From Candidatus Binatia bacterium (GTDB taxonomy: Bacteria > Desulfobacterota > Binatia > UBA9968): a stretch of DNA of 64,000 nucleotides. The DNA is taken from contig JBHHYU010000005.1 of the NCBI GenBank assembly GCA_046757725.1, forward strand, positions 4,947-68,946, written 5' to 3'. A program made the translations under genes and the position numbers. Under the pieces are notes generated by a model that saw only the letters and a list, made by a program, of their open reading frames with translations, did not search any database and was not told where the DNA came from. Within the stretch, counting starts at the first letter, position 1. Every line of letters starts with the position of its first letter. Below are positions 5,740 to 38,215 of the stretch, in pieces.

Positions 5740-6456
5740 ATGGAATACATTGATCTAACCCTGCCTAGGCCGGAGCAAAATCTAGCATGCGATGAGGCTC
5801 TAACTGATATGTGTGAAGCGGGATACGGCCGCGAGATTTTGAGATTTTGGGAGCCCCGTGAATACTTTGTGGTTGTAGGATATTCAAATAAAACGGCTTT
5901 GGAGGTTAACCTGCTATCCTGTAGGAAACGGCGTATTCCCATATTTAGGCGGCGTTCTGGAGGCGGGACCATATTGCAGGGTCCCGGATGCCTGAACTAT
6001 TCATTGGTTTTAAAAATCCAAGACTCGTCACCTATGAATAACATTTCAGGAACAACCGCCCACATTATGAAATGTCATAGGAAAGCTATACAAGAGATTA
6101 TAGGGTCTAAGGTTGAAATTCAAGGCGTCAGCGATCTCACCTTAGGGATGTTAAAATTTTCGGGAAATGCCCAATACCGGAAAAGACGAGTTTTATTGTT
6201 TCACGGTACTTTTCTGCTTCATTTCAACATTCCACTTATGGAAAAGATACTCCAACTACCCTCAAAACGACCCCTTTATCGTTTTGACCGCTGTCACGAA
6301 GAATTTCTCGTTAATTTGAATCTGCCCTCTCAGAAAGTTAAGGAGGGCCTTCGAAAGGCATGGCATGCTACCAAAGCCCTACAACACATTCCCCGCGAAA
6401 GAATAGATGGCACGGTAAAAATGTACTCCACCGAACAATGGAGAGTTAAAACCTAG
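5740..6456 (+). CDS. Lipoate-protein ligase / octanoyltransferase family protein (LplA/LipB/LipM-like)
   Basis: 238 aa. RRSGGGTILQGPG and KFSGNAQ motifs resemble the BPL/LplA/LipB catalytic core. Divergently transcribed from the pyruvate dehydrogenase operon, which fits a role lipoylating E2. Confidence 0.55.
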   Translation: MEYIDLTLPRPEQNLACDEALTDMCEAGYGREILRFWEPREYFVVVGYSNKTALEVNLLSCRKRRIPIFRRRSGGGTILQGPGCLNYSLVLKIQDSSPMNNISGTTAHIMKCHRKAIQEIIGSKVEIQGVSDLTLGMLKFSGNAQYRKRRVLLFHGTFLLHFNIPLMEKILQLPSKRPLYRFDRCHEEFLVNLNLPSQKVKEGLRKAWHATKALQHIPRERIDGTVKMYSTEQWRVKT

Positions 6457-6639
6457 CCGGAAGATTTTCCCGACTTTTCGGTTGGTGGAGGCGGTGCAAG
6501 AGCATGAAGAACTACTCTCTACCGTTTCCTTTTGGCTGAAATAGCCCGGTTCTACCAGATAGAAGTGGAAATTCCTTCCACTTATTAGCTTCCTACAGAA
6601 TCCAAAGAAAGAGCTATTTTGCGGCTGTCGGAAAAGGAA

Positions 6640-6669
6640 GCGGCGGCCCGGCGTGGACCGCCGCTTTTT
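6640..6669. terminator. Bidirectional intrinsic terminator: 7-bp GC stem (GCGGCGG/CCGCCGC), 11-nt loop, then a TTTTT run on the + strand and a T-rich stretch on the - strand
   Basis: Read directly from the sequence: gcggcgg cccggcgtgga ccgccgc ttttt. It sits between the 3' ends of the convergent lipoate ligase-like (+) and RTX (-) genes. Confidence 0.55.
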
Positions 6670-6697
6670 GAGGACTGTTTGAACGACTCACAGCAGA

Positions 6698-7426
6698 TCA
6701 GATTACAGTTTCGCAGCTGACATCGATCGTATTCGTGGGACCGCCACCCTGACAGACATCGGTTCCAGCGCCGCCGCTAATCGTGTCATCATCGAGGCCG
6801 CCTCCAATCGTGTCGGCTCCATCGCCCCCGTTAATGATGTCTTGTCCGCGACCGCCGCTAAGCACGTCGTCACCAGGCCCACCCCTGATCGTGTCGTCTC
6901 CAGTAGCTCCATGAATTGCGTCATCTTCGTCCCCGCCCCTAAGGTCATCGCCGCCTGGCCCGCCGTCTATCATGTCGTCACCTAGCCCACCCCTAATCGT
7001 GTCGGGACCTCTGTCGCCAGTGATTCTATCGTTACCTGATCCTCCTCTTATCGTGTCACCGTCGCTGCCACCGAAGATCCTATCGTTGCCTGCATTGCCG
7101 CTAATCGTGTCAGGGCCGTCGCCACCAAAGATTCTGTCGTTGCCTGATCCTCCCTGGATCTCGTCGGCTCCACTGTTCCCGAAGATTTCGTCCCGGCCGG
7201 AGCCGCCACAAATTATGTCGTCGCCACCACGCCCGATTATCGTATCATTACCACCAAAGCCATGGATCACGTCAGCTCCGCTTGTACCTATGAGAACGTC
7301 AGGACCAGGAGTCCCCGGGATGGTTACGGCTGCGCCTTGGCATAGCGGCTGCCCATATGCCGGGTAAGATGAAGCCATAAACAAGCCGATCACAATTGCT
7401 ACCAAAACCGTAAAATTTTTCATCGG
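6698..7426 (-). CDS. Secreted RTX-type (hemolysin-type) calcium-binding repeat protein
   Basis: The product has a Sec-type signal peptide (MKNFTVLVAIVIGLFMASSYPAYG) followed by about 20 tandem GGxGxDxUx nonapeptide repeats (GGSGNDRIFGGDGPDTISGNAGNDRIFGG...). The start was moved from the track's 7474 to the internal ATG at 7426, which is preceded by an AAGGAGG ribosome-binding site. Confidence 0.7.
   Translation of the reverse strand, partial: PMKNFTVLVAIVIGLFMASSYPAYGQPLCQGAAVTIPGTPGPDVLIGTSGADVIHGFGGNDTIIGRGGDDIICGGSGRDEIFGNSGADEIQGGSGNDRIFGGDGPDTISGNAGNDRIFGGSDGDTIRGGSGNDRITGDRGPDTIRGGLGDDMIDGGPGGDDLRGGDEDDAIHGATGDDTIRGGPGDDVLSGGRGQDIINGGDGADTIGGGLDDDTISGGAGTDVCQGGGPTNTIDVSCETVI
6740..7295. 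repeat. Intragenic tandem 27-bp (nonapeptide) repeat array encoding RTX calcium-binding repeats
   Basis: Recurring ...aatcgtgtc... / ...gatcgtgtc... units. The antisense frame gives a Pro/Ser-rich artefact ORF (6972..7367), which is typical of repetitive DNA. Confidence 0.6.
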
Positions 7427-7929
7427 CGATACCTCCTTTAAATTTAGTCCCTTCAACCCAGTCCATACTCTCATTTAAAAAACAGCACAGCCTTACGAAC
7501 TAACTCAAAGAGTGCCCAGCTCCAATCTGCCCTTTTACCCCTCCCAGAAACATCTCCGTCCCTCATCTTAAGTCTCAAATCATAGTAAAACCCAATCAAA
7601 GCTCGGGACGGCCGCTCCCTGTCGGAATCTACCAGGCTATATTCCGCGTCAGAATGCTTGACAGGGGAGAGCTACGATATCCTAACAAGAAAACTTTAGC
7701 GTTGGGAATTTAAGGGAAGTTAATGGAACTATTTGGCGTAGATGTGTAGGGAGTCTACCATAGGATTTTGGGTCCTGACGGAGGCGTGGGTCTCGGGGCA
7801 AGGGGACGAAGGGACTGGGGGTGTATATCCTAGGTATCTTTGCTTATATAACGTTGTTGACTAGCTTGAATTACTTCTAGATGTTTTTCTGAAACAGAAA
7901 CGACGGCCTGTTGTGGACCCTGTTTCTTA

Positions 7930-9978
7930 CTACTTGCTTTCGTCCGCAAGCCGCTTTTGTGCTTCCTCATTAGAGATGGATTCCAACTCAGCCAACATGC
8001 GAGCCAGCTCTTCGTCCCCGGCCTTCTTCGCCATGTTCTCCGTAATGATCAAAGCCATGCCTGCAACTGTGGGAGACTCGAAGAGGGATTTTATGGGCAA
8101 TTCTACTTTGAATGTTTTGATTACTCGCGAGATGACCTGGGTGGCGTTGAGGGAGTGACCTCCTAGATCGAAAAAATTGTCATAGATGCCCACTTGATCG
8201 AGACCCAAAACCTCGGCCCAGACACCCGCCACCGTCACCTCAACCGGAGTGTGGGGCGCTACGAAGGTCCCGTTCAGATTCGGTCTGCTTCGACCGAGGG
8301 TGGGCAACGCGCGGCGGTCCACCTTGCCGTTGGGAGTCAGCGGCATCCTTTTTAAATTAACGAAGGCGGTGGGTATCATGTAGTCGGGAAGTCTACCTTT
8401 TAGGTAACGGCGCAGCTCTTCGGTAGATGGACCAAAGCTGTTCCGCAAGACCAGATAGGCCACCAAGCATGGGTCACCCTGCCCGTCTTCCCGACTCGTA
8501 ACGATGGCCTCATTGATTCCAGGGATATCGAGCAGCGCCAACTCGATCTCTGCAACTTCGATGCGGAAACCTCTAACTTTTACTTGGAAGTCTCTTCGCC
8601 CGAGATGCTCAAGGCTGCCGTCCGGACGCATGCGGCCCAAGTCTCCTGTGAGATAAATTCGCTGGGCTTCACTGCCGGGGTCGCATGGAAATCTGGTCTG
8701 AGTTAAGTGGGGATTTTGCCAGTAGCCCGGCGAAAGATAGTCACTGCTCACCGCAATTTCACCCGCATGACCGACGCCGATCTCTTCCCGGCTCTCACCG
8801 AGCAACAGGATCTTCTTGTCTTGCACCGGGTATCCTGTCGGAACAACGGTTCCGGTGATCTGCGATTGCTTATCGAGGAAGTACTGACGGATCCATCCGG
8901 TCTCAGTGGATCCCATCCCTGTGTAAAGAATGCTAGTTGCCGAGAAATACTTCTTGTATAACTCTACGTCTTTTATGAGAACCCTCTCACCTCCAAATCG
9001 ACATAGGCGAAGCCTGGGAAACTTTTCTTTTCCAGTCAGGCCGGCAACGAAACTGCGGAAGACCGTGGGGACCGAAATGTAAAACGTGATCTCTTCGCGA
9101 ATAAGGAAGTCTGCCAAGTTCGCCAAACCCTCGTGTTTAATATCGAACGGATACACGGCTGCCCCGTTGAGTAAAGGGCCGAAAATACCTCTCACGGAAC
9201 CGTTGACGCTGTAAGAGTAGAATAGGGTCATCCGGTCGTCCGGACAGATGCGGAGAGTGTTCGTATACAGCATGACCTCATGAAGCACGTTGCGGTGGTT
9301 TTGGACAACGCCCTTTGGCTGTCCCGTTGAACCGGATGTGTACAGAATATACGCTAGCGGGTCCGACGATAGTGACAAGTCCAGATTCTTTGCGGACAAA
9401 CTCGTAGTGACTCGGTCAATGTTAATCAGTGAAACCGGACCCTGAACCAACCGTTTGGCCAAGGAAAGATTTTTGGTGTTGGTGACTATCAGCCCGGCCT
9501 GTGAATCTTTGAGAATGTAGGCGGTTCTTGAAAGGGGATACAAGGGATCCAGGGGCACGTACATTTTACGTGCTTTCAAAGCACCGAGAATTGCACCAAT
9601 CATTGGTGCGTTGTGTTCAAAAAGCAGAGCAACTTGCTTGTGTCGTTCGCCGCATTGGCCGACGATGGCTCGCGCCACGCGATTGGCAGCTTTATTCAGT
9701 TCATCGTATGTAAACTGGTGGGTCCCGGTCTTGACGGCAAGGCGATTAGGATACTTCCGCACCATTTGCTCGAAGCGGTCCGGGATCGATTGCTCGATCT
9801 CATCCCTCTTGAACTCAATAAACTTTCCTGTCGGGTGGAAACATTTGTCTCGGATAGCTTGCTGCTCCGGTGGAAGATCAGAAATTGCAGTGGAAATATT
9901 GGTCATATGCTGCTGGCGGATCTCATCGCATACACCTTCTAATACTGGGATAATATTAATCCAATCATGTTCTTCCAT
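7930..9978 (-). CDS. Stand-alone NRPS-type adenylation-thiolation (A-T/PCP) didomain protein
   Basis: 682 aa. Adenylation core motifs are present: A3 LAYILYTSGSTGQPKGV, A5-like GMGSTE, A7 YLTGDLGR, A8 GRRDFQVKVRGFRIEVAEIE, A10 PLTPNGKVDR. The carrier-protein motif is DNFFDLGGHSLNATQV. No condensation or thioesterase domain is present. Confidence 0.75.
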   Translation of the reverse strand: MEEHDWINIIPVLEGVCDEIRQQHMTNISTAISDLPPEQQAIRDKCFHPTGKFIEFKRDEIEQSIPDRFEQMVRKYPNRLAVKTGTHQFTYDELNKAANRVARAIVGQCGERHKQVALLFEHNAPMIGAILGALKARKMYVPLDPLYPLSRTAYILKDSQAGLIVTNTKNLSLAKRLVQGPVSLINIDRVTTSLSAKNLDLSLSSDPLAYILYTSGSTGQPKGVVQNHRNVLHEVMLYTNTLRICPDDRMTLFYSYSVNGSVRGIFGPLLNGAAVYPFDIKHEGLANLADFLIREEITFYISVPTVFRSFVAGLTGKEKFPRLRLCRFGGERVLIKDVELYKKYFSATSILYTGMGSTETGWIRQYFLDKQSQITGTVVPTGYPVQDKKILLLGESREEIGVGHAGEIAVSSDYLSPGYWQNPHLTQTRFPCDPGSEAQRIYLTGDLGRMRPDGSLEHLGRRDFQVKVRGFRIEVAEIELALLDIPGINEAIVTSREDGQGDPCLVAYLVLRNSFGPSTEELRRYLKGRLPDYMIPTAFVNLKRMPLTPNGKVDRRALPTLGRSRPNLNGTFVAPHTPVEVTVAGVWAEVLGLDQVGIYDNFFDLGGHSLNATQVISRVIKTFKVELPIKSLFESPTVAGMALIITENMAKKAGDEELARMLAELESISNEEAQKRLADESK

Positions 9979-10085
9979 TCCATTAATCTAGTCAAGCCTT
10001 AGGAGGCCCCATATTTTGGGACCGCTTGGGACACTTTGAACGGTCAGGAGGGGATTGCTAGGGATCTGGGTCACTCATGCTGGTT

Positions 10086-10655
10086 TCAGCACTTCCGGCA
10101 GACGAGATCTCCCTTTGGAAATGGCAAGAGTACACAGTCTACTCGGGTATCGCTTCGCGCACGGTTCAGGAGATCCGTCACCACGCGGGGCGAAGTCATG
10201 TTATCGATAACCAGCCATCCACCGGGCACGAGGTGCGGAACAATCTTCTCGTAGGTCTTGGCGTTGAGCTCCGGGGGCTCGATATCGGAGAAGCAAAACG
10301 CGATCTCCTCAAAACGGTCCGCGTAGTCGAGAGCGTTGCCGTGAACGACTTGGACCGAACCTTCCGCTCCGGCGCGGGAGATGTTCTTTCGAGCAAAGGC
10401 GACCTTATTTTCATCGAGATCGATCGTAGTGAGCGTAACCCCTTTCGCGCGGGCAGCCAGGGACAGCCACAGACTAGAGTATCCGCCGCTGGTTCCCAGC
10501 TCGAGGAATGCGCCGTGTGGGGCTGACATCGCCAGGAGCGAAAGGCAGCGCCCGAGGTCTATAGGAACCGAGCGAAGTGACCGATGATCCTGTGCCGTCT
10601 GTTCCTCTAGCGCTCGCATCACCTGGTGCATGTTAGCGGAAATGTCATGAAACAC
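10086..10655 (-). CDS. Class I SAM-dependent O-methyltransferase (family 3, caffeoyl-CoA/catechol OMT-like)
   Basis: 189 aa. SAM-binding motif LELGTSGGYSSLWL and acidic motif VIDNMT. The start overlaps the stop of the upstream 465-aa gene by 11 nt. Confidence 0.7.
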   Translation of the reverse strand: MFHDISANMHQVMRALEEQTAQDHRSLRSVPIDLGRCLSLLAMSAPHGAFLELGTSGGYSSLWLSLAARAKGVTLTTIDLDENKVAFARKNISRAGAEGSVQVVHGNALDYADRFEEIAFCFSDIEPPELNAKTYEKIVPHLVPGGWLVIDNMTSPRVVTDLLNRARSDTRVDCVLLPFPKGDLVCRKC

Positions 10656-12042
10656 TTGAGCCTCCCTCGAGCTTCTCGAACGGCACGCTGCGCCGATTGA
10701 TCTGATCTTCGATATCGTCCGGATATAGATTCTCGTTCAGCAAAACATAGTCGCCGTAAGTGCCGTGAACGGGACCAAGCAAGCGACGCTCCGCAAGTAG
10801 CCCAGGCCTTCTCTTTCCAAATTGTGGCAAGTTCGACCGATATTTTTGGTAGCACTCGTACCAATTGCGCATGAGCTGCACGTAAAAGTCCAATGGAACC
10901 GGAGGCTGCTCGGCCTCCTTGCACAGAGCCGTGGACGGCTCCCGCCGCCACTGTTGAGGACGCGGAAGAATCCCGCGTGACATCAGGTATTCGAAGCCGG
11001 CGCTCGTTGATTTGACCGCCTCTGCCACGGATTGATACCCGTGGGGCCGCGCCATTTCAACACCAGAGACGAAGCTCGGCTGCATGCCCCCCTTGCCGAA
11101 AACATCCTGCGCCTCGCACATCCATCGCACCCAGTTGTCCCAACCGATACGTTGAGCTTTTCCAGGATTGATCCATTCGAAGAGACGTTTATCCCACACC
11201 TCCATGTTGAGGTGTATACTGTCGACACCGGCGGCTTTGTACCATTCCATCTCTTCCCTCGGCCGCGCATTGACCTCGAATGTAATCTTTGGCTTCGCCG
11301 CGCTCTCCTTGATGGCGCGTATGTACTCCCCGTAGAATTCCGATTCGGTTTTCCCGTGCAGCGTCTTAGTGATGGTTCCGCCGCTAAGCAAGAAGCCGTG
11401 CGGACCTGCGTCAACCTTGCGGGCATCGCTCGCGACCGCCTCGACTACTTGCACGACATCTTTCACGGATTTTACTGGAGCGGTCAGAGTGAAGTCCCGC
11501 GACAACTTCATCTGACGAGCGTTCTGGTTAATGTCACAGAACTTACACTCCTCGTGAGCCCCCCAGTATTGGCAATTCCTAAAGATCGTAATGAATGTTC
11601 CGAATGCCACAATTTCATGATAAGGCGTGCCATCAGGCAAACACTTCGCATAATAGTCGGGTATTTTCGGGTATCGGATATCGGCCAGAACGCGCCCTTC
11701 CGCTGTCAGTACGAGTCGGCCATCGACCACATCGATGAGGTAAGGAGAATGAGGGGAAAGAGAAGTCTGAATCCCCACGGGACGTAGGGCGTATGGTCCA
11801 TTAAGTAGAACGAAGTGCTCGGGAACGCGCCGATGTTCTCCCCTCTTGAGGTCGGCCATCGGTACGAGATCATAAGAGAACAATCGGTATGACTTGACCA
11901 GCGCACCAGCTGTGGCTCGGAGCGCGGCGTCGCTAAACCAATGACCCAGGCTCAGGAGATGTTGTTTGAGAATAGTCTCCTTGGGAACCTCGGGGTATTT
12001 CTGGAAATAAGATTCCAGGACTTCGGCATTAGGTTCGTTCAT
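10645..12042 (-). CDS. Putative radical-SAM-like enzyme with non-canonical C-x8-C-x2-C cysteine triad
   Basis: 465 aa. Cysteine triad CQYWGAHEECKFC, then a glycine-rich FLLSGGT stretch and an HLNMEV segment consistent with a radical-SAM TIM-barrel core. It also has N-terminal (about 165 aa) and C-terminal (about 120 aa) regions of unknown function. It is not the canonical CxxxCxxC motif. Confidence 0.4.
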   Translation of the reverse strand: MNEPNAEVLESYFQKYPEVPKETILKQHLLSLGHWFSDAALRATAGALVKSYRLFSYDLVPMADLKRGEHRRVPEHFVLLNGPYALRPVGIQTSLSPHSPYLIDVVDGRLVLTAEGRVLADIRYPKIPDYYAKCLPDGTPYHEIVAFGTFITIFRNCQYWGAHEECKFCDINQNARQMKLSRDFTLTAPVKSVKDVVQVVEAVASDARKVDAGPHGFLLSGGTITKTLHGKTESEFYGEYIRAIKESAAKPKITFEVNARPREEMEWYKAAGVDSIHLNMEVWDKRLFEWINPGKAQRIGWDNWVRWMCEAQDVFGKGGMQPSFVSGVEMARPHGYQSVAEAVKSTSAGFEYLMSRGILPRPQQWRREPSTALCKEAEQPPVPLDFYVQLMRNWYECYQKYRSNLPQFGKRRPGLLAERRLLGPVHGTYGDYVLLNENLYPDDIEDQINRRSVPFEKLEGGSSVS

Positions 12043-12462
12043 CGTCGAGACGTTACCCAGTGCGTGGATCCTTAAAGCTGGTTTCGAAACTCGATTTCAT
12101 GTGTTTTCTAAGCTTGGTACTCGCCGGGATTTATACTGCGACTTTGCCTCACTCCCGAGCGCCCTTTAGGACATCATTCTACTCCTCCGGCAGGGATTTT
12201 GACTTTTTCACAAGAAATCGTGCTAAACGGCTAATAGGCTGACTATTTACACTTCTATAGTTTAACTGTCAATAACTTTTTCAAACCCTAAGACGTTTCG
12301 AAGGAATCCCGACGATTGAGGCGTGATTGATAAGGTGCTTTAAAAAGGCGAATAAAGAGTGGCCTTTATCGCTTCCCCAAGAGAATGCCACGGTATAAGG
12401 GTTAGCAAACACTCCAAGGCGCAATTGAACGGTGCATTAATCACGCCTTGTTTTCATGCGGC

Positions 12463-13644
12463 CTATTTCGAATGATGCGACTGCTCGTAATGCTGGCGCA
12501 GGAGGTCCTTACCGTAGTCGTTGCCATTTGGGGTGCGAACCACTAGGTGGATGTGATCCTTGTAAGGCTTCTGATATTGGGGGAATGCGATACCCCGCTC
12601 GTGGTCGAACTCAATGATAATCGTCGGACTATGGACGCGGTAGTAGAACACACTGTCTTCTTCCATCTCGCCCATCCAGGCAAAGTAAGTTTCCCGCAGA
12701 TGCCGCTTCACCTCCTCCATCTTGACTTGGGCATGAGCCGGTCGGATACGACCGACGTGGAGTTCAATCAGACGGAGCAAAAGGTCGTGTTGAGAACTTG
12801 AGAGACTTTCGTAGGGGATTCCCTCGTACCGGAGCTCAAAGTTGTCGCGAAAGGCCGTGGTGAATAGACCGCGCGGCAGATCGAGAGAGAGGACAGCCTT
12901 GTTACGTTGCTCCGCGGAAAGCGCACGGATAACCGTCAGTCCCTGCTCCTCTTCAGCTTTAAACACCCGCGTGCCGCCGTACTTGCCGCCCTGGGCAAAG
13001 ACCGGCTCCGACCCCAGAAAGGTTGGGGTCATGATAATCTGGTCTCCGAGGATAAAGGTGTTGATGTTGAGATGATGGCCGTCGATCTGCCAACCCCACG
13101 GCTCAGCGGCGGAGGGTTTCCCCATAATGCTGAGCCAGTAAAGGTCCTCACCGTACTCATCGTGCTTACCCGTCATCTCCATTACTGTTTCATTGAGACG
13201 CATGACATCCCGAGCGGTCTCAAATCCCTGAGTGCTCAAACATTCTCTCAGGAGCGCAAAAGCTCCGTCACGCTGGGCATCGTTCATCTCAAATAACGGC
13301 ATCCCGTGCCGCATCAGCAGCCGATGGATATTACTCCATTTGCGCCACTCATCGGTGTCAATCGGAAATAGGGCCTTGGCACGCTGCTCCGGGTTCAGAG
13401 TTCCCAGGAAGTTTTCAGCACCTTCTCTGATGGACTGCGTGGACACACCTGTTTTCTGGATAGGGAAGAGACCCGGAATCACCGTTCCATCGGTAGTAAT
13501 CCCTTTATAAGGTTGCGCCACCGCCTCTAGCGCGTGTTTGACGTAATCAGGAGGGCCACCGCCAACTTTCAATGCCCGCTTAGTCTGTGCCGGGGAGGCT
13601 TCTGCAAGGGATGCGTTACCCGAACCTGGATTACTGTCAACCAT
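12463..13644 (-). CDS. DUF3500 family protein
   Basis: 393 aa. The C-terminal region (YFAWMGE...YYRVHSPTIIIEFDHE...HIHLVVRTPNGNDYG) matches what I recall of the DUF3500 family signature. No signal peptide. Confidence 0.5.
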   Translation of the reverse strand: MVDSNPGSGNASLAEASPAQTKRALKVGGGPPDYVKHALEAVAQPYKGITTDGTVIPGLFPIQKTGVSTQSIREGAENFLGTLNPEQRAKALFPIDTDEWRKWSNIHRLLMRHGMPLFEMNDAQRDGAFALLRECLSTQGFETARDVMRLNETVMEMTGKHDEYGEDLYWLSIMGKPSAAEPWGWQIDGHHLNINTFILGDQIIMTPTFLGSEPVFAQGGKYGGTRVFKAEEEQGLTVIRALSAEQRNKAVLSLDLPRGLFTTAFRDNFELRYEGIPYESLSSSQHDLLLRLIELHVGRIRPAHAQVKMEEVKRHLRETYFAWMGEMEEDSVFYYRVHSPTIIIEFDHERGIAFPQYQKPYKDHIHLVVRTPNGNDYGKDLLRQHYEQSHHSK

Positions 13645-14074
13645 TGTAAAACTCCTCTTTCACGCCCCCACGATGCACGGAATTCTGTACGAAGGCATCA
13701 ATATCACAGGGAAATGGGTTGTCAAACATCCTGGGATGCAATTAAACGATGCCTGAATTGATCCCATAAACTGAACGGTCAATGCTCTCGGTTTTGTCGT
13801 ATTGTATACGACAAGTTGAGTAGAGAGGAGGCGAGGTGGAGGGGGAACTTTGCAAGAGCCGACCGCACAAGAAAATCACACCAGACTTTAACCGGCAGGT
13901 TGCATTGTCTTCGCGGCATACGATCAGCCATGCGTATTGACTTATACGCTCCTCTGCTGTAATGGAAAAACTCGTATTTTCTTCCCTTTTCCTGGTCCGC
14001 TTCTCTACATCGCTGTACCCGGATTCGGGTCACATACTCGCTCCCTGAAGGCCTAGCGCGACGAGCAATAAGGC

Positions 14075-14623
14075 GTGGATTTTAGACGAGCACTACCTGA
14101 GGATCTTACCGGCATTCTTCGCCTCCAATCCGCCAACCTCAGAGGTAGTCTGAATCTCAAAGATCAACAAGAAGGTTTCCTTTCCGCTGAATTCACCCGT
14201 CGGCATCTAGTAGAGATTGCGAGCGAGATTGCCCTCCTCGTGGCAAGCGACAAGGGCCAGGTGCTCGGCTACCTGTGTTCGTACAGTTGCGTGTACAGCA
14301 AACAGTTCCCTATACTTGCTACGATGATGCGCTCATTCGACCATATTCTCTATCGGGCGAAACCCTTGAGTTTCTACAAGGCATTCGTCTATGGACCCGT
14401 TTGCATTGATAAAACGCATCGGGGTCGCGGACTTCTCCGGGGGCTCTATGCAACTCTGTTAAAGGAAGTCGGCGGAAGATACGAAGTCGGAGTCGCCTTC
14501 GTGTCCAAAGACAATCCCCATTCACTGACTGTTCACGTAAATGGACTTGGAATGGCCATTGCCGGCGAGTTTGAATTCCGCCGCCGCAACTACGATATTC
14601 TAGCATTCAGTGTTGAGTCGTAA
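14075..14623 (+). CDS. GNAT-family N-acetyltransferase (GTG start)
   Basis: 182 aa. Acetyl-CoA-binding motif A-like segment VCIDKTHRGRGLLRGLYATLL. Confidence 0.45.
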   Translation: MDFRRALPEDLTGILRLQSANLRGSLNLKDQQEGFLSAEFTRRHLVEIASEIALLVASDKGQVLGYLCSYSCVYSKQFPILATMMRSFDHILYRAKPLSFYKAFVYGPVCIDKTHRGRGLLRGLYATLLKEVGGRYEVGVAFVSKDNPHSLTVHVNGLGMAIAGEFEFRRRNYDILAFSVES

Positions 14624-14951
14624 ACGCAGGTTCCAAGCGTTTGTTCATCTTTGAGTAGGGGCCAGGCTGAACTGCCTTCAGGCCAACCCTCCTGTCTGTG
14701 CCGGGTAGGCAAACAGGTGGCTATATCCGCCGTTTCCAGCTTCGTGCCTGTTTAAAAAGGCAACAGTGCGGGAGTTCGGCTCTGAGTGAGTCCGAGAAGG
14801 GGTGAGACTCGGATCGACGGTACTATCCGACTGCATCGCCGGCGAGATGGTTAGATTCTTACGAATCCAACGTATGCCTAAAACAGCACAAGTCGCGATG
14901 TCAAGTGAATTAGAGATAAGCGAGGTGACTAGTAGGAAAATTTTGAAATTT

Positions 14952-15029
14952 ATGGTGGCGGTGGGGGGACTCGAACCCTCGACATCGCGGATATGAGCCG
15001 CGTGCTCTAACCAACTGAGCTACACCGCC
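14952..15029 (-). tRNA. tRNA-Met (anticodon CAU), elongator type; could alternatively be the lysidine-modified tRNA-Ile2
   Basis: Reverse complement reads GGCGGTGTAGCTCAGTTGGTTAGAGCACGCGGCTCATATCCGCGATGTCGAGGGTTCGAGTCCCCCCACCGCCACCA. It has the D-arm GCTC/GAGC, anticodon loop CTCATAT, T-loop TTCGAGT, discriminator A and an encoded CCA. The 1:72 G-C pair and the lack of a GGG/CCC anticodon stem argue against an initiator tRNA. Confidence 0.85.
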
Positions 15030-15065
15030 ACAGCATTGCAACTGAAAGAGATTACCCGAGGAGAG

Positions 15066-15791
15066 TCAGGTTGCGGTGGCGCCAAGACATTGCCATTGAT
15101 CGCTCACTGATCTTCGCGTCACCTTTTTGTCCCCCCTCTTGATTTGGAACAGGACCTTCTCTTTCACCTCCAGGCAGCTAAGATTATTACCAAACACGAG
15201 GCCGGTATCCAAGCCGATTTTGTACGGTAGATGAAAAAGCACTTCTCTCTGCGGAGTATGCCCAAAAAGTACGGTATAGGGGAGTTTATGTTGGTTGTGA
15301 ATGAACTCGTCACGGATCCACAGCAGCTCTTCTTCTATCTGTTGGCTGAAAGGTTTCAAGGGATGAATTCCCGCATGGACACAGAGGAAAGGTTCCATCA
15401 GGTAATGGACCTTTAGCTCCTTTAGAAATTCGAGATGACTTTCCGGTATCGAGGAGAGGGCCTCTCGTGGAGAAGCGTTTATCGGGGAAAGTCCATAACT
15501 TGCCATGGTGGCGCTGCCACCGTTAAAAAGAAACATCTGACCGTATCGGCCGGGCAGACCAAGATAGGAAAGAAACATATCTTCGTGATTTCCTTTTAGA
15601 AAAATGATGTCCTGTTTTCCATTTTGGCGGCGCTCGATCAAATAGGAGATAACACCTTTGGAGTCTGGGCCTCGATCGACGTAATCACCTAGAAAAACTA
15701 GTCGATCCAACGGTTGGAGTGGAAGGGCTTCGATAAGGCGACATAACTCATCTAAGCAACCATGAATGTCTCCGATTACGTAGCATTTCAT
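15066..15791 (-). CDS. Metallophosphoesterase (PPP-family Ser/Thr phosphatase / ApaH-like)
   Basis: Motifs GDIHG, GDYVDRG and GNHE. The start was set to the internal Met (MKCYVIGDIHG). Confidence 0.7.
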   Translation of the reverse strand: MKCYVIGDIHGCLDELCRLIEALPLQPLDRLVFLGDYVDRGPDSKGVISYLIERRQNGKQDIIFLKGNHEDMFLSYLGLPGRYGQMFLFNGGSATMASYGLSPINASPREALSSIPESHLEFLKELKVHYLMEPFLCVHAGIHPLKPFSQQIEEELLWIRDEFIHNQHKLPYTVLFGHTPQREVLFHLPYKIGLDTGLVFGNNLSCLEVKEKVLFQIKRGDKKVTRRSVSDQWQCLGATAT

Positions 15792-17533: not shown

Positions 17534-17983
17534 TTATATAGCACTTTTAATTTCCCTTTTTAATTCATTTAAGTTGTTTACTTGTCGAACCCCAGGTATT
17601 TCACCCCACGCCCTGATTCCCACAACAGGTTTGGCAAGCTTGAGCGCAATTGATATCTCTGACCGGGTTCCATGAGAGCCCGGAAAGGCAACTATTAAAT
17701 CTCCCGAAGCAGCGACTAAAATGTTTCTCGCATGCCCGAGTCCGGTAGGAATGATTATATCAATGAAGGGGTTGGCTGAGTTTTTGTTGTAATCAGGTAG
17801 AATCCCTACGGTAGTCCCGCCTTTTTCTTTTGCGCCACGTGCGGCTGCTTCCATAATACCACCCAATCCGCCGCAGATTAAAACCGCACCTGTTGCCGCG
17901 ATAGTTTTACCGACCTCTACTGCCAGAGCCAGAAATCGCGGATCTCGATCGGAACTGCCTATCACGGCTATTTGCAATTGCAT
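17534..17983 (-). CDS. TIGR00725/LOG (SLOG) family Rossmann-fold nucleotide-binding protein
   Basis: 149 aa. IAVIGSS...ICGGLGGIMEAAARGA motif. Confidence 0.6.
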   Translation of the reverse strand: MQLQIAVIGSSDRDPRFLALAVEVGKTIAATGAVLICGGLGGIMEAAARGAKEKGGTTVGILPDYNKNSANPFIDIIIPTGLGHARNILVAASGDLIVAFPGSHGTRSEISIALKLAKPVVGIRAWGEIPGVRQVNNLNELKREIKSAI

Positions 17984-37183: not shown

Positions 37184-38215
37184 GTGACAATGGTAACCAT
37201 CGATGCGGATGCGCATGTCCTAGAGAACGAGCGTACTTGGGATTACATGGACCCATCGGAACATAAATTCAGGCCCGTGATTGTTTCTGAACGGGACCCG
37301 CAGCCGCCGGGTACAGAATATTGGCTGGTTGACGGGAAATTTCAACCAAAGGTAAAGAACGTCGGACAAGAAACCCCGAAGGCATCACGGGAGATGGCCG
37401 ACATATCCAGCCGCTTAAGGCATATGGATGAGCTGGAAATCGATATACAGGTGCTCTATCCATCCCTTTTTCTGAGGCCTCTCACCAGGCGCCCCGAGGT
37501 GGAGCTGGCATTATGCAAAAGCTATAATCGTTGGTTGGCGGATATCTGGAGACAGGAGAAAAAACGCCTGCGATGGGTGACGGTGCTGCCGCTCTTGACT
37601 ATTGATAAGGCACTCGATGAAGCACGGTTCGCAAAGAAAAACGGGGCCTGTGGAATTTTCCTACGCGGATTAGAAGGAGAGAGACGCCTAAACGACCCCT
37701 ATTTCTTTCCTGTTTACGAGGAGGCCCGCAGACTGGATATGCCTGTGTGCGTCCATTCTGCGACGGGAAGCTTTACCCTGTTTGAGTTCTTTACCCAGGA
37801 GTGCGGCTTTTCGAAATTCAAACTGGCAGGAGTCGGTGCTTTTCATTCGTTCATCTATGATGGTATTCCAGATAAGTTTCCAGGCCTCAGATTTGCATTT
37901 ATCGAGTTTAGCGCTCAATGGTTGCCCTATGCCATCCACGACCTGGCTAAACGATTTCAGCGGCGAGGACAATCCCTTCAGAAGGAGCTTTTACGGGAAA
38001 AAAGGATTTATGTGGCGTGCCAGACAGACGACGACATGCCGAATGTCGTTAAATATTCCGGCGAAAACAACCTCGTGATCGGTTCCGATTACGGCCATTC
38101 AGATACGGCCAGCGAGATTGAAGCCTTGCGGAAATTAAAGCGGCAGGGCGGTCTTAACCCTGATACGATTGGCAAGATACTGGATGACAACCCGCGAACC
38201 CTCTATGGTCTTTGA
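37184..38215 (+). CDS. Amidohydrolase-2 family metal-dependent hydrolase (TIM barrel)
   Basis: 343 aa. N-terminal IDADAHV metal-binding His pair and C-terminal GSDYGHSD. Confidence 0.6.
   Translation: MTMVTIDADAHVLENERTWDYMDPSEHKFRPVIVSERDPQPPGTEYWLVDGKFQPKVKNVGQETPKASREMADISSRLRHMDELEIDIQVLYPSLFLRPLTRRPEVELALCKSYNRWLADIWRQEKKRLRWVTVLPLLTIDKALDEARFAKKNGACGIFLRGLEGERRLNDPYFFPVYEEARRLDMPVCVHSATGSFTLFEFFTQECGFSKFKLAGVGAFHSFIYDGIPDKFPGLRFAFIEFSAQWLPYAIHDLAKRFQRRGQSLQKELLREKRIYVACQTDDDMPNVVKYSGENNLVIGSDYGHSDTASEIEALRKLKRQGGLNPDTIGKILDDNPRTLYGL

What the first reader, a model, noticed from the sequence alone, without database searches (positions are those of the whole stretch)
6698..13644. Candidate novel small-molecule biosynthetic cluster: stand-alone A-T didomain, catechol-type OMT, atypical radical-SAM-like enzyme, DUF3500 protein and secreted RTX protein
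Five co-directional minus-strand genes form an accessory-looking unit between core genes (the pyruvate dehydrogenase/lipoate ligase genes on one side, a GNAT gene and a tRNA on the other). They are a DUF3500 protein, a 465-aa radical-SAM-like protein translationally coupled (11-nt overlap) to a family-3 O-methyltransferase, an NRPS adenylation-PCP didomain with no condensation or thioesterase partner, and an RTX calcium-binding secreted protein. A carrier-tethered acid activated by a stand-alone A-T, then modified by a radical enzyme and an O-methyltransferase, is the logic of several aryl/catechol or unusual amino-acid pathways. This particular combination with DUF3500 is not a described system as far as I can tell.
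Basis: partly seen in the sequence, partly recalled or inferred. Interest (0 to 1): 0.8.

Follow-up and report, generated by a model that had tools for sequence, protein, structure and literature searches.

The report
Conserved radical-SAM/methyltransferase pair, unrelated neighbours
The five genes are real and their domains were read correctly, but comparison with about 120 related genomes shows they are not one biosynthetic cluster; only the radical-SAM enzyme and the methyltransferase that overlaps it form a conserved unit, and its function is still unknown.

Summary
Observation confirmed. Five minus-strand ORFs sit at the stated coordinates, with the predicted domains and the 11-nt overlap.

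Interpretation mostly not supported. In 122 related loci (mostly Candidatus Binatia MAGs and metagenome contigs, about 0.93 Mb of flanks):
- the OMT follows the radical-SAM gene in 100/100 testable loci, and the 11-nt overlap is kept in 103/106;
- DUF3500 and the RTX gene are never nearby;
- an A-T of the window's type is nearby in only two loci (L014, L028).

The closest homologues of DUF3500 (91%) and of the A-T (77%) sit in other contexts. DNA homology to relatives is confined to window 10080-12073.

The usual Binatia partner is an FbpA/AfuA-like solute-binding protein, absent from this window. In Nitrospiria, Gallionellaceae and a Gammaproteobacterium the pair sits with a LigXa-like Rieske oxygenase (not seen on the truncated Gammaproteobacterial contig), an IPMDH-like dehydrogenase and an isochorismatase-ALDH fusion. 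No curated family or paper I found describes that set.

The radical-SAM protein has a Cx8CxxC motif and no characterised relative. The A-T is an orphan from a large Binatia family lacking Asp235. A window-specific rSAM-OMT-A-T link stays possible (about 0.25). Interest moderate.

The parts
10645..12042 (-). Variant radical-SAM enzyme, 465 aa. Relatives start 6 codons further upstream; at 12058-12060 the window has CTG where they have ATG.
11536..11574 (-). Cluster-binding motif C157-x8-C166-x2-C169 (CQYWGAHEECKFC). These are the only invariant cysteines.
   Evidence: Invariant columns of the 42-sequence alignment A1. Coordinates.
10645..10655 (-). 11-nt overlap between the rSAM stop codon and the OMT GTG start, with a GGAGG Shine-Dalgarno 5 nt upstream. 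This indicates translational coupling.
   Evidence: Sequence. The 11-nt overlap is found in 103 of 106 loci.
10086..10655 (-). Short (189 aa) family-3, cation-dependent-type O-methyltransferase. D124, D151, N152 and K181 are conserved. The usual catalytic Lys position (127) is Pro.
   Evidence: PF01596 56.8 bits. Best solved relative is DesAOMT, 8C9V, E 3e-14. Residue conservation across 35 aligned sequences, 34 partner OMTs plus a DesAOMT fragment.
7930..9978 (-). Orphan NRPS-type A-T didomain, 682 aa. Core motifs are intact: A3 at 9310-9357, A10 Lys within 8314-8334, carrier Ser609 in GGHSL at 8149-8163. Predicted pocket code is N-G-R-I-R-G-G-W-I-K, with no Asp235. A5 reads GMGSTE rather than YGPTE.
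   Evidence: The protein is 100% identical to P0121, 'AMP-binding protein [Candidatus Binatia bacterium]'.
12463..13644 (-). DUF3500 protein, 393 aa. Separated from the rSAM gene by 420 nt and not a conserved neighbour of it.
   Evidence: PF12006 332.9 bits. Present in 0 of 122 loci. Contexts of its closest homologues.
6698..7474 (-). Small RTX / beta-roll calcium-binding repeat protein. Likely start is Met18 (7423), followed by a Sec-type signal-peptide-like segment (7352-7423). Not a conserved neighbour.
   Evidence: PF00353 157 bits. 27-nt periodic repeats. Present in 0 of 122 loci. Coordinates; the signal peptide was judged by eye.
10080..12073 (.). Limits of nucleotide homology between the window and every related locus. 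Even the 94%-identical L001 loses homology outside this span.
   Evidence: blastn.

Best explanation
The region is a mosaic, not one pathway.

The only conserved functional unit is a two-gene, translationally coupled module:
- a variant radical-SAM enzyme with a single [4Fe-4S] site on Cys157/166/169 (Cx8CxxC) and no auxiliary cluster;
- a short family-3 (Mg2+-type) O-methyltransferase.

Inferred mechanism:
1. The radical-SAM protein reductively cleaves SAM.
2. It uses the 5'-deoxyadenosyl radical to rearrange, cleave or add to a small-molecule substrate. It does not insert sulfur or act as a B12-dependent methylase.
3. The coupled methyltransferase then methylates a metal-chelated hydroxyl of the product.

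I lean towards a hydroxylated aromatic or enediol-type acid as substrate. The direction of the pathway (salvage or catabolism of an imported solute versus synthesis of a conserved metabolite) is unresolved.

DUF3500, the RTX protein and, most probably, the A-T didomain are independent genes that happen to lie beside the module in this genome. All four non-RTX genes have raised GC3 and may be intra-phylum acquisitions near the tRNA-Met gene.

Shown: gene order statistics, coupling, fold, motifs.
Inferred: chemistry, substrate class, independence of the A-T.
For: Conservation of the pair:
- OMT directly downstream in 100/100 loci; 11-nt overlap in 103/106.
- Homologous OMTs (36-41% identity) accompany rSAM homologues (54-60% identity) in Nitrospiria, Gallionellaceae, a Gammaproteobacterium and GCA_029260765.
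- DNA homology is bounded to 10080-12073.

Other neighbours:
- DUF3500 and RTX occur in 0/122 loci. Non-canonical A-T genes occur only in L014 (6 kb away) and L028.
- The closest DUF3500 and A-T homologues sit in unrelated contexts.
- The usual partner is an SBP_bac_1 protein, in 67/80 loci. It is FbpA/AfuA/P5PA-like.

Enzyme properties:
- The fold is a radical-SAM barrel nearest HydG, HydE, PylB, LipA, BioB, ThiH, MqnE and NosL.
- Only three cysteines are invariant.
- The OMT keeps D124, D151, N152, K181 and the E-x-G-T-S-x-G-Y-S SAM loop in all 34 partner OMTs with a residue at those columns.
- Its nearest solved relative, DesAOMT, methylates catechols in vitro.

Aromatic theme in the neighbourhood:
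- LigXa-type Rieske oxygenase right after the OMT in 8/72 Binatia loci and in four of the five contexts outside Binatia, the exception being the Gammaproteobacterium L078, whose contig ends beside the Iso_dh gene.
- Amidohydro_2 directly upstream in the clades that lack the OMT.
- FAD_binding_3 hydroxylase nearby in some loci.

GC3 z-scores: +2.6 (OMT), +1.6 (rSAM), +1.9 (DUF3500), +1.1 (A-T).
Against: - No family member has been characterised, so the chemistry is entirely inferred.
- The 107-nt same-strand gap between OMT and A-T has no terminator-like site on the coding strand, so co-transcription with the A-T is possible.
- An A-T of the same Asp235-less type follows the pair in L028. Two A-T-TE proteins flank it in Gallionellaceae. 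This is more than I would expect if A-T genes were rare in these genomes.
- The Binatia OMTs have Pro where canonical enzymes have the catalytic Lys, so catechol O-methylation is not assured.
- The SBP partner belongs to a class that binds Fe3+ or phosphorylated metabolites, which fits the aromatic-substrate guess poorly.
Confidence: 0.6

Rival explanations
1. First reader's model. All five genes form one small-molecule biosynthetic cluster. The A-T tethers an acid, the radical-SAM enzyme and OMT modify it, DUF3500 adds a further step, and the RTX protein is an associated secreted factor.
For: The genes are co-directional and adjacent. GC3 is raised in four of the five. DUF3500 has been linked genetically to polyhydroxybenzene ring cleavage in fungi, which shares an aromatic theme with a catechol-type OMT.
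Against: DUF3500 and RTX appear in none of 122 related loci. The 91%-identical DUF3500 homologue has other neighbours. Gaps of 420 nt and 455 nt separate DUF3500 and RTX from the core. The RTX protein has its own Sec-type leader. No C, TE or PPTase gene was found among the scanned window genes.
Confidence: 0.04
2. Lineage-specific three-gene pathway. In this genome, and independently in L028 and Gallionellaceae, an Asp235-less A-T was recruited to the rSAM-OMT module. It activates a non-amino acid (its pocket holds two Arg), loads it on its own carrier domain, and rSAM and OMT act before or after loading. Release would need an unlinked partner.
For: The gap is 107 nt, on the same strand, with no terminator-like site. 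L028 has rSAM-OMT, then about 550 nt, then an A-T on the same strand. L014 has an A-T 6 kb away. Gallionellaceae L075 has two A-T-TE genes next to OMT-rSAM, one with pocket N-A-N-H-R-G-G-D-L-K, which resembles the window's N-G-R-I-R-G-G-W-I-K. The C-terminal tail after the carrier domain could be a docking helix (by eye).
Against: Only 2 of about 72 Binatia loci with enough downstream sequence show this, plus the window. The three Binatia A-Ts are not each other's closest relatives (49-54% identity, against 55-77% to A-Ts elsewhere) and have different pocket codes. True orthologues of the window A-T (P0127, P0129) are not next to the pair. The family is very abundant in Binatia, often in real NRPS clusters, so chance adjacency is plausible. 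The L028 copy is frameshifted.
Confidence: 0.25
3. The rSAM-OMT pair is a housekeeping cofactor or quinone-type biosynthetic step, not a step in catabolism or salvage of an imported compound.
For: Protein conservation is very high (73-95%) across more than 100 species-level Binatia genomes and metagenome contigs. There is one copy per locus. Outside Binatia it sits in a fixed gene set with an IPMDH-like dehydrogenase, an isochorismatase-ALDH fusion and, where the contig extends far enough, a Rieske oxygenase. MqnE, a menaquinone-pathway radical-SAM enzyme, is among the closest folds and ties for the highest identity, 17%.
Against: The commonest neighbour is a periplasmic solute-binding protein (67/80 loci), which suggests an imported substrate. 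The neighbourhood is otherwise highly variable. No known cofactor pathway matches this gene set in NCBIfam or in the paper search.
Confidence: 0.2

Closest known systems
Radical-SAM enzymes acting on small molecules: HydG, HydE, PylB, BioB, LipA, ThiH, NosL, MqnE
   Different: Identity is only 10-17%. The motif is Cx8CxxC, not CX3CX2C. There is no auxiliary-cluster cysteine set, so BioB/LipA-type sulfur insertion is excluded. An extra beta-rich N-terminal domain (roughly residues 76-123) is not matched. No PDB relative is found by sequence.
NCBIfam NF045502 'variant_rSAM', TIGR04043 MSMEG_0568-type radical SAM, and the RadicalSAM.org CX8CX2C megaclusters 4-6-x
   Same: The window protein passes the NF045502 cut-off (176 against 125 bits) and carries a CX8CX2C motif like those catalogued in PMC9477430.
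   Different: These are sequence catalogues with no assigned chemistry. The TIGR04043 score (59 bits) is far below its cut-off of 304, so this is not the MSMEG_0568 (Nit1C-cluster) enzyme.
DesAOMT (PDB 8C9V), the short Mg2+-dependent catechol O-methyltransferase of Desulfuromonas acetoxidans
   Same: It is the best solved relative (E 3e-14) and aligns end to end. It is the same short form, without the N-terminal helix. The metal ligands D...DN and the C-terminal Lys align. It methylates many catechols in vitro.
   Different: The window OMT has Pro at the position of DesAOMT's Arg, which is Lys in canonical enzymes. Its substrate is unknown. According to the paper, the DesAOMT subgroup has an R-N-K triad.
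Stand-alone NRPS A-T didomains such as CytC1/C2-type or aryl-acid-loading systems
   Same: The adenylation core motifs, the A10 Lys and the GGHSL carrier serine are all present. LgrA, TycA and similar A-T regions are the best PDB matches.
   Different: Asp235, the alpha-amino ligand, is missing (Asn here). A5 reads GSTE, not GPTE. It falls 0.6 bits short of the TIGR01733 cut-off. No C, TE, R or tailoring partner that acts on carrier-bound substrates is nearby. It belongs to a large Binatia family with highly diverse pockets.
Fungal DUF3500 of the 1,2,3,5-tetrahydroxybenzene (gallate) pathway
   Same: Same Pfam family, PF12006. Deletion in Aspergillus accumulates tetrahydroxybenzene, so a ring-cleavage role is proposed.
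   Different: No FAH-like gene or monooxygenase lies beside it here. The bacterial function is untested. It is not linked to the rSAM-OMT module in relatives.

Membership tests
Radical SAM superfamily | Three-cysteine motif for the SAM-binding [4Fe-4S] cluster (canonical CX3CX2C) | tested here: inconclusive
   Three invariant Cys are present but spaced Cx8CxxC. This variant spacing is catalogued within the superfamily. Cluster binding itself is untested.
Radical SAM superfamily | Partial or full (beta/alpha) barrel fold of the core domain | tested here: met
Radical SAM superfamily | Curated sequence model above its threshold | tested here: met
   NF045502 scores 176.2 against a cut-off of 125. 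Pfam PF04055 alone fails: 26.7 against 29.5.
MSMEG_0568-type radical SAM (TIGR04043) | Score above the equivalog cut-off | tested here: not met
   59.4 bits against 303.7.
Class I cation-dependent O-methyltransferase (PF01596) | Family model above threshold, and SAM-binding loop | tested here: met
   56.8 bits against 22. The ELGTSGGYS loop is invariant.
Class I cation-dependent O-methyltransferase (PF01596) | Metal-binding Asp...Asp-Asn | tested here: met
   D124, D151 and N152 align with the DesAOMT and canonical positions. They are conserved in all 34 partner OMTs that have a residue at those columns.
Class I cation-dependent O-methyltransferase (PF01596) | Catalytic Lys of the K-N-D triad | tested here: not met
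   Position 127 is Pro in 29 of 35 aligned sequences, all of the Binatia type. It is Lys in the Nitrospiria, Gallionellaceae, L077 and L078 partners and Arg in DesAOMT.
NRPS adenylation-carrier didomain | AMP-binding, AMP-binding_C and PP-binding domains, carrier serine, A10 lysine | tested here: met
   GGHSL with Ser609; PNGKVDR with Lys552.
NRPS amino-acid adenylation domain (TIGR01733) | Model cut-off, and Asp235 that binds the alpha-amino group | tested here: not met
   316.8 bits against 317.4. Position 235 is Asn by my motif-based mapping. None of the 120 closest homologues has Asp there. The mapping was not anchored on a GrsA alignment.
DltA / primary-metabolism acyl ligases | Equivalog cut-offs | tested here: not met
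   DltA 218-228 bits against 476-560; MenE 146 against 330; benzoate-CoA ligase 141 against 375.
Biosynthetic gene cluster (conserved co-localised set) | The same genes recur together in other genomes | tested here: not met
   Only rSAM and OMT recur (100/100). DUF3500 0/122, RTX 0/122, window-type A-T in 2/122.
Biosynthetic gene cluster (NRPS type) | Condensation, release (TE/R) and PPTase functions available nearby | tested here: not met
   None was found among the 38 window ORFs scanned against Pfam. About 18 ORFs of 90 aa or more, mostly at 50.5-63.3 kb, were not scanned. antiSMASH and MIBiG could not be run.
RTX type-I-secreted proteins | Nonapeptide Ca-binding repeats | tested here: met
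   PF00353, 157 bits, 7 stretches.
RTX type-I-secreted proteins | C-terminal secretion signal, no N-terminal leader, linked T1SS genes | tested here: inconclusive
   An N-terminal hydrophobic, Sec-like leader follows Met18 (by eye). No T1SS gene was seen among the scanned neighbours. No signal-peptide predictor was available.
DUF3500 (PF12006) | Family model above threshold | tested here: met
   332.9 bits against 27.2, covering the full length.

The most novel reading that the evidence does not exclude
The variant (Cx8CxxC) radical-SAM enzyme and its obligate methyltransferase partner catalyse a radical transformation not yet described.

Outside Binatia this would be part of an undescribed pathway of four to five genes: a LigXa-like Rieske oxygenase, an IPMDH-like dehydrogenase, an isochorismatase-ALDH fusion, the rSAM and the OMT. 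That pathway would make or remodel a methoxylated small acid.

Asp235-less A-T(-TE) proteins would be recruited repeatedly (window, L028, Gallionellaceae) to activate that acid. On this reading the window would hold a trimmed, carrier-linked version of the pathway.
Probability: 0.3. Interest if true: 0.65.

Novelty: new variant of a known kind. Interest (0 to 1): 0.4.

Why it matters
- It removes a false lead. This is not a five-gene natural-product cluster and should not be given priority as one.
- It points to a sharply defined two-gene module. The pair is translationally coupled in more than 100 genomes of an uncultured, soil-abundant phylum and has deep relatives in Nitrospiria and iron-oxidising Gallionellaceae. 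No member has a known reaction.
- Radical-SAM families with non-canonical cluster motifs have repeatedly yielded new chemistry. A fixed partner methyltransferase and a frequent solute-binding protein give concrete handles for finding the substrate, for example SBP ligand screening and a search for +14 Da products.
- The large Binatia family of stand-alone A-T proteins without the amino-group-binding Asp is a separate lead for unusual carrier-protein chemistry.

Tried and rejected
- PDB sequence search with the rSAM protein found nothing at E <= 1.
- NCBIfam scan of the Gallionellaceae and Nitrospiria partner proteins gave only generic ALDH, LeuB-like and Rieske hits, no named system.
- Full-text searches returned nothing relevant: radical SAM + isochorismatase + Rieske + OMT + ALDH, and Binatia + radical SAM.
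- Rfam scan of 6400-15200 found only the tRNA, so there is no riboswitch in the 420-nt or 455-nt gaps.
- The promoter and terminator consensus scan was no better than shuffled sequence and did not define operon borders.
- Small ORFs in the intergenic gaps gave no conserved candidate precursor peptide, because homology to relatives stops at the cassette edges. I therefore dropped a RiPP reading.
- Look-up of the window's own contig through P0121 found nothing on record.
- The 38-40% identity Gaiellaceae/Thermoleophilia rSAM group was not analysed further. My crude ORF calling is unreliable at their GC content.
- A 9-nt direct repeat (GAAACCAGC) at both cassette edges was considered as a recombination scar. 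It is too short to separate from chance.
- One NCBIfam call failed because I gave wrong coordinates.
Full report

Yes. ORF listing and translation give five minus-strand genes exactly where stated:
- RTX, 6698-7474
- A-T didomain, 7930-9978
- O-methyltransferase, 10086-10655 (GTG start)
- radical-SAM-like protein, 10645-12042
- DUF3500, 12463-13644

Pfam and NCBIfam confirm each domain call:
- PF00353: 157 bits.
- PF00501, PF13193 and PF00550: 199.7, 42.5 and 51.3 bits.
- PF01596 and PF13578: 56.8 and 51.7 bits.
- PF04055: only 26.7 bits, below its 29.5 gathering score. The NCBIfam 'variant_rSAM' model NF045502 scores 176 bits against a cut-off of 125.
- PF12006: 332.9 bits.

The 11-nt overlap is real and is preceded by GGAGG. 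The flanks are the PDH E1/E2/E3 genes and LplA on one side, and a weak GNAT-like ORF and tRNA-Met on the other.

The gaps are uneven:
- 420 nt between DUF3500 and the rSAM gene;
- 107 nt between the OMT and the A-T;
- 455 nt between the A-T and the RTX gene.

The A-T protein is 100% identical to an NCBI protein from a Candidatus Binatia MAG, on an 87.7-kb contig.

**2. Is the set conserved?**

A genome scan with the rSAM protein gave 68 loci, almost all Binatia or 'Deltaproteobacteria' MAGs. A metagenome scan added 80 more. I searched all of them by tblastn with the window's proteins. For the 122 loci whose rSAM is at least 66% identical, the counts are:
- OMT immediately downstream: 100 of 100 loci with enough sequence.
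- DUF3500: 0 loci.
- RTX: 0 loci.
- An A-T of the window's type: L014 (6 kb away) and L028 only. Two further loci carry ordinary Asp235-containing NRPS genes.

The 11-nt overlap is kept in 103 of 106 loci. About 0.93 Mb of flanking DNA was surveyed.

Nucleotide homology between the window and every relative stops at 10080 and 12073. This holds even for L001, which is 94% identical inside that span.

The reverse test agrees.
- The DUF3500 homologues that are 91% and 81% identical sit beside MFS, ABC_sub_bind, DHDPS and NMT1 genes.
- The A-T orthologues that share the window's predicted pocket (P0127 at 77% identity, P0129 at 61%) sit beside a GT28 glycosyltransferase and further A/T genes, or beside a DUF2332 gene among housekeeping genes.

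The rSAM-OMT pair passes it emphatically.

**3. What normally accompanies the pair?**

In Binatia the commonest neighbour is a periplasmic SBP_bac_1 protein directly upstream. It is on the same strand in 52 loci and divergent in 15, out of 80 testable loci. Its best solved relatives are a PLP-binding protein and Fe3+-binding proteins of the FbpA type. The window has no such gene anywhere in its 64 kb; DUF3500 occupies that position instead.

A LigXa-type Rieske oxygenase follows the OMT in 8 of 72 loci.

Outside Binatia, rSAM homologues of 54-60% identity keep a homologous OMT of 36-41% identity. They lie in a recurring set with:
- a Rieske/LigXa_C oxygenase, present in Nitrospiria, Gallionellaceae and GCA_029260765 but not seen in the Gammaproteobacterial locus L078, whose contig ends just past the Iso_dh gene;
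- an Iso_dh (LeuB-like) dehydrogenase;
- an isochorismatase-aldehyde dehydrogenase fusion.

The full set occurs in Nitrospiria, Gallionellaceae and GCA_029260765, and the set without a visible Rieske gene occurs in the Gammaproteobacterium.

A Chloroflexota relative and a 53%-identity Binatia clade lack the OMT. They have an Amidohydro_2 gene directly upstream instead.

NCBIfam gives no name to this set, and I found no paper on it.

**4. The radical-SAM protein.**

- Across 42 homologues the only invariant cysteines are C157, C166 and C169, spaced Cx8CxxC. One cluster is therefore expected, with no auxiliary cluster.
- AlphaFold2 with this alignment gives a confident model (pLDDT 91.7).
- Sequence search of the PDB finds nothing.
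- CX8CX2C groups are listed, without function, in the RadicalSAM.org survey (PMC9477430).
- A profile search of 1.84 billion cluster representatives finds only 174 at E <= 1e-30. All sequences at or above 50% identity collapse into one representative. This is a small family.
- In the window, the ATG start used by relatives has become CTG (12058-12060). The ORF begins six codons later.

**5. The methyltransferase.**

- Its best solved relative is DesAOMT (8C9V). This is a short Mg2+-dependent enzyme that methylates many catechols in vitro and lacks the usual K-N-D triad.
- D124, D151, N152, K181 and the SAM loop are conserved in all partner OMTs.
- The canonical catalytic Lys position is Lys in the partners outside Binatia but Pro in the Binatia clade.
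- 'Catechol-type' is therefore a reasonable inference but an untested one.

**6. The A-T didomain.**

- It is an NRPS-type A domain by PDB and NCBIfam comparison, not DltA, MenE or a CoA ligase.
- The core motifs and the carrier serine are intact.
- By motif-based mapping, the pocket reads N-G-R-I-R-G-G-W-I-K. I did not anchor this mapping on a GrsA alignment, so the positions are approximate.
- Asp235 is absent here and in all 120 closest homologues, whose pockets are very diverse.
- Members of this family often sit in true NRPS clusters with C, TE and MbtH genes. None of those was found among the 38 window ORFs I scanned; these were otherwise core genes such as sulfate assimilation, UbiE, ValRS, EF-G, Ccm, MDH, succinyl-CoA ligase and LepA. 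About 18 ORFs, mostly beyond 50.5 kb, were not scanned.
- The A-T is thus an orphan.

Points that keep a link to the pair alive:
- L028 also has an A-T about 550 nt downstream of the OMT on the same strand. That copy is frameshifted and has a different pocket.
- The Gallionellaceae locus has two A-T-TE genes next to OMT-rSAM, one with a similar pocket.
- No terminator-like site lies in the 107-nt gap.

Points against:
- The three Binatia A-Ts next to the pair are less similar to each other (49-54% identity) than to A-Ts elsewhere (55-77%).
- The family is abundant, so chance adjacency is plausible.

**7. DUF3500 and RTX.**

- DUF3500 is itself strongly conserved in Binatia, at 70-92% identity over hundreds of homologues.
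- That shares an aromatic theme with the OMT, the Rieske oxygenase and the Amidohydro_2 genes. There is no positional link in relatives.
- The RTX protein has a Sec-like leader after Met18 (by eye) and no linked secretion genes. I regard it as unrelated.

**8. Composition.**

GC3 is raised in OMT (z +2.6), DUF3500 (+1.9), rSAM (+1.6) and A-T (+1.1) relative to the window's genes. Relatives come from genomes with higher GC. It suggests separate intra-phylum acquisitions near the tRNA-Met gene. It does not show that the genes work together.

**9. Verdict.**

- The interpretation as a five-gene biosynthetic cluster is not supported.
- What is really there is a conserved, translationally coupled pair (variant radical-SAM plus O-methyltransferase) of unknown chemistry. 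Here it has lost its usual solute-binding partner and sits beside three unrelated or, at most, opportunistically linked genes.
- My confidence in the mosaic reading is about 0.6. A window-specific rSAM-OMT-A-T pathway gets about 0.25, and the full five-gene model about 0.04.
- The pair, and the wider gene set it belongs to outside Binatia, are uncharacterised and worth biochemical work. That justifies a moderate interest score, not the 0.8 first proposed.

Noticed in passing
L072-L074 (Nitrospiria), L075/L076 (Gallionellaceae), L077 (GCA_029260765), L078 (Gammaproteobacteria): A recurring gene set with no curated name: Iso_dh (LeuB-like, 372-391 aa), an isochorismatase-ALDH fusion (668-694 aa), the variant rSAM, Methyltransf_3 (196 aa) and a Rieske/LigXa_C oxygenase. 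The Rieske gene is not seen in L078, whose contig ends just past Iso_dh. In L075 the set is joined by two A-T-TE proteins and an asparagine-synthase-like amidotransferase.
   Followed up: partly
window 12058-12060: The ATG start codon used by relatives of the rSAM gene (MGN..., 471 aa) is CTG in the window. The ORF begins at the next ATG (12042), giving 465 aa.
   Followed up: yes
window 12077-12085 and 10079-10087: The 9-mer GAAACCAGC (minus strand) lies at both edges of the rSAM-OMT cassette, exactly where homology to relatives ends. The downstream copy is ancestral and is seen in L001, L013, L017 and L022. The upstream copy is specific to the window. It may be a recombination scar or chance.
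   Followed up: partly
P0122-P0240 (homologues of window 7930-9978): This is a large family of roughly 660-aa stand-alone A-T proteins. The named members are from Binatia. None of the 120 closest members has Asp at the alpha-amino-binding position. The pockets are very diverse and often rich in Arg, His and Lys.
   Followed up: partly
window 10273-10278 (OMT residues 126-127) compared with L072, L075, L077, L078: The catalytic Lys of the D-A-D-K motif is kept in OMT partners outside Binatia. It is replaced by Pro in 29 of the 35 aligned sequences, all of the Binatia type.
   Followed up: yes
window 37184-38215: This Amidohydro_2 gene is 41% identical to the Amidohydro_2 that lies directly upstream of the rSAM homologue in a Chloroflexota MAG (L069). 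In the window it is 25 kb from the pair.
   Followed up: no
L028 12497-14489: The A-T gene downstream of rSAM-OMT is split by a frameshift into ORFs of 208 aa and 503 aa. This is either an assembly error or a pseudogene.
   Followed up: no
window 7352-7423: The RTX-repeat protein appears to carry an N-terminal Sec-type leader after Met18. That is unusual for type-I-secreted RTX proteins. No predictor was run.
   Followed up: no
window 17534-17983 and 5740-6456: The SLOG/LDcluster4 gene (GC3 z -3.2) and the LplA gene (z -2.4) have markedly low GC3 compared with the rest of the window.
   Followed up: no
L001 (JAZGDX010000151.1): This 3.8-kb contig is binned as 'Bacteroidota' but carries an rSAM-OMT cassette 94% identical in DNA to the window's. 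It is probably a mis-binned Binatia contig.
   Followed up: no
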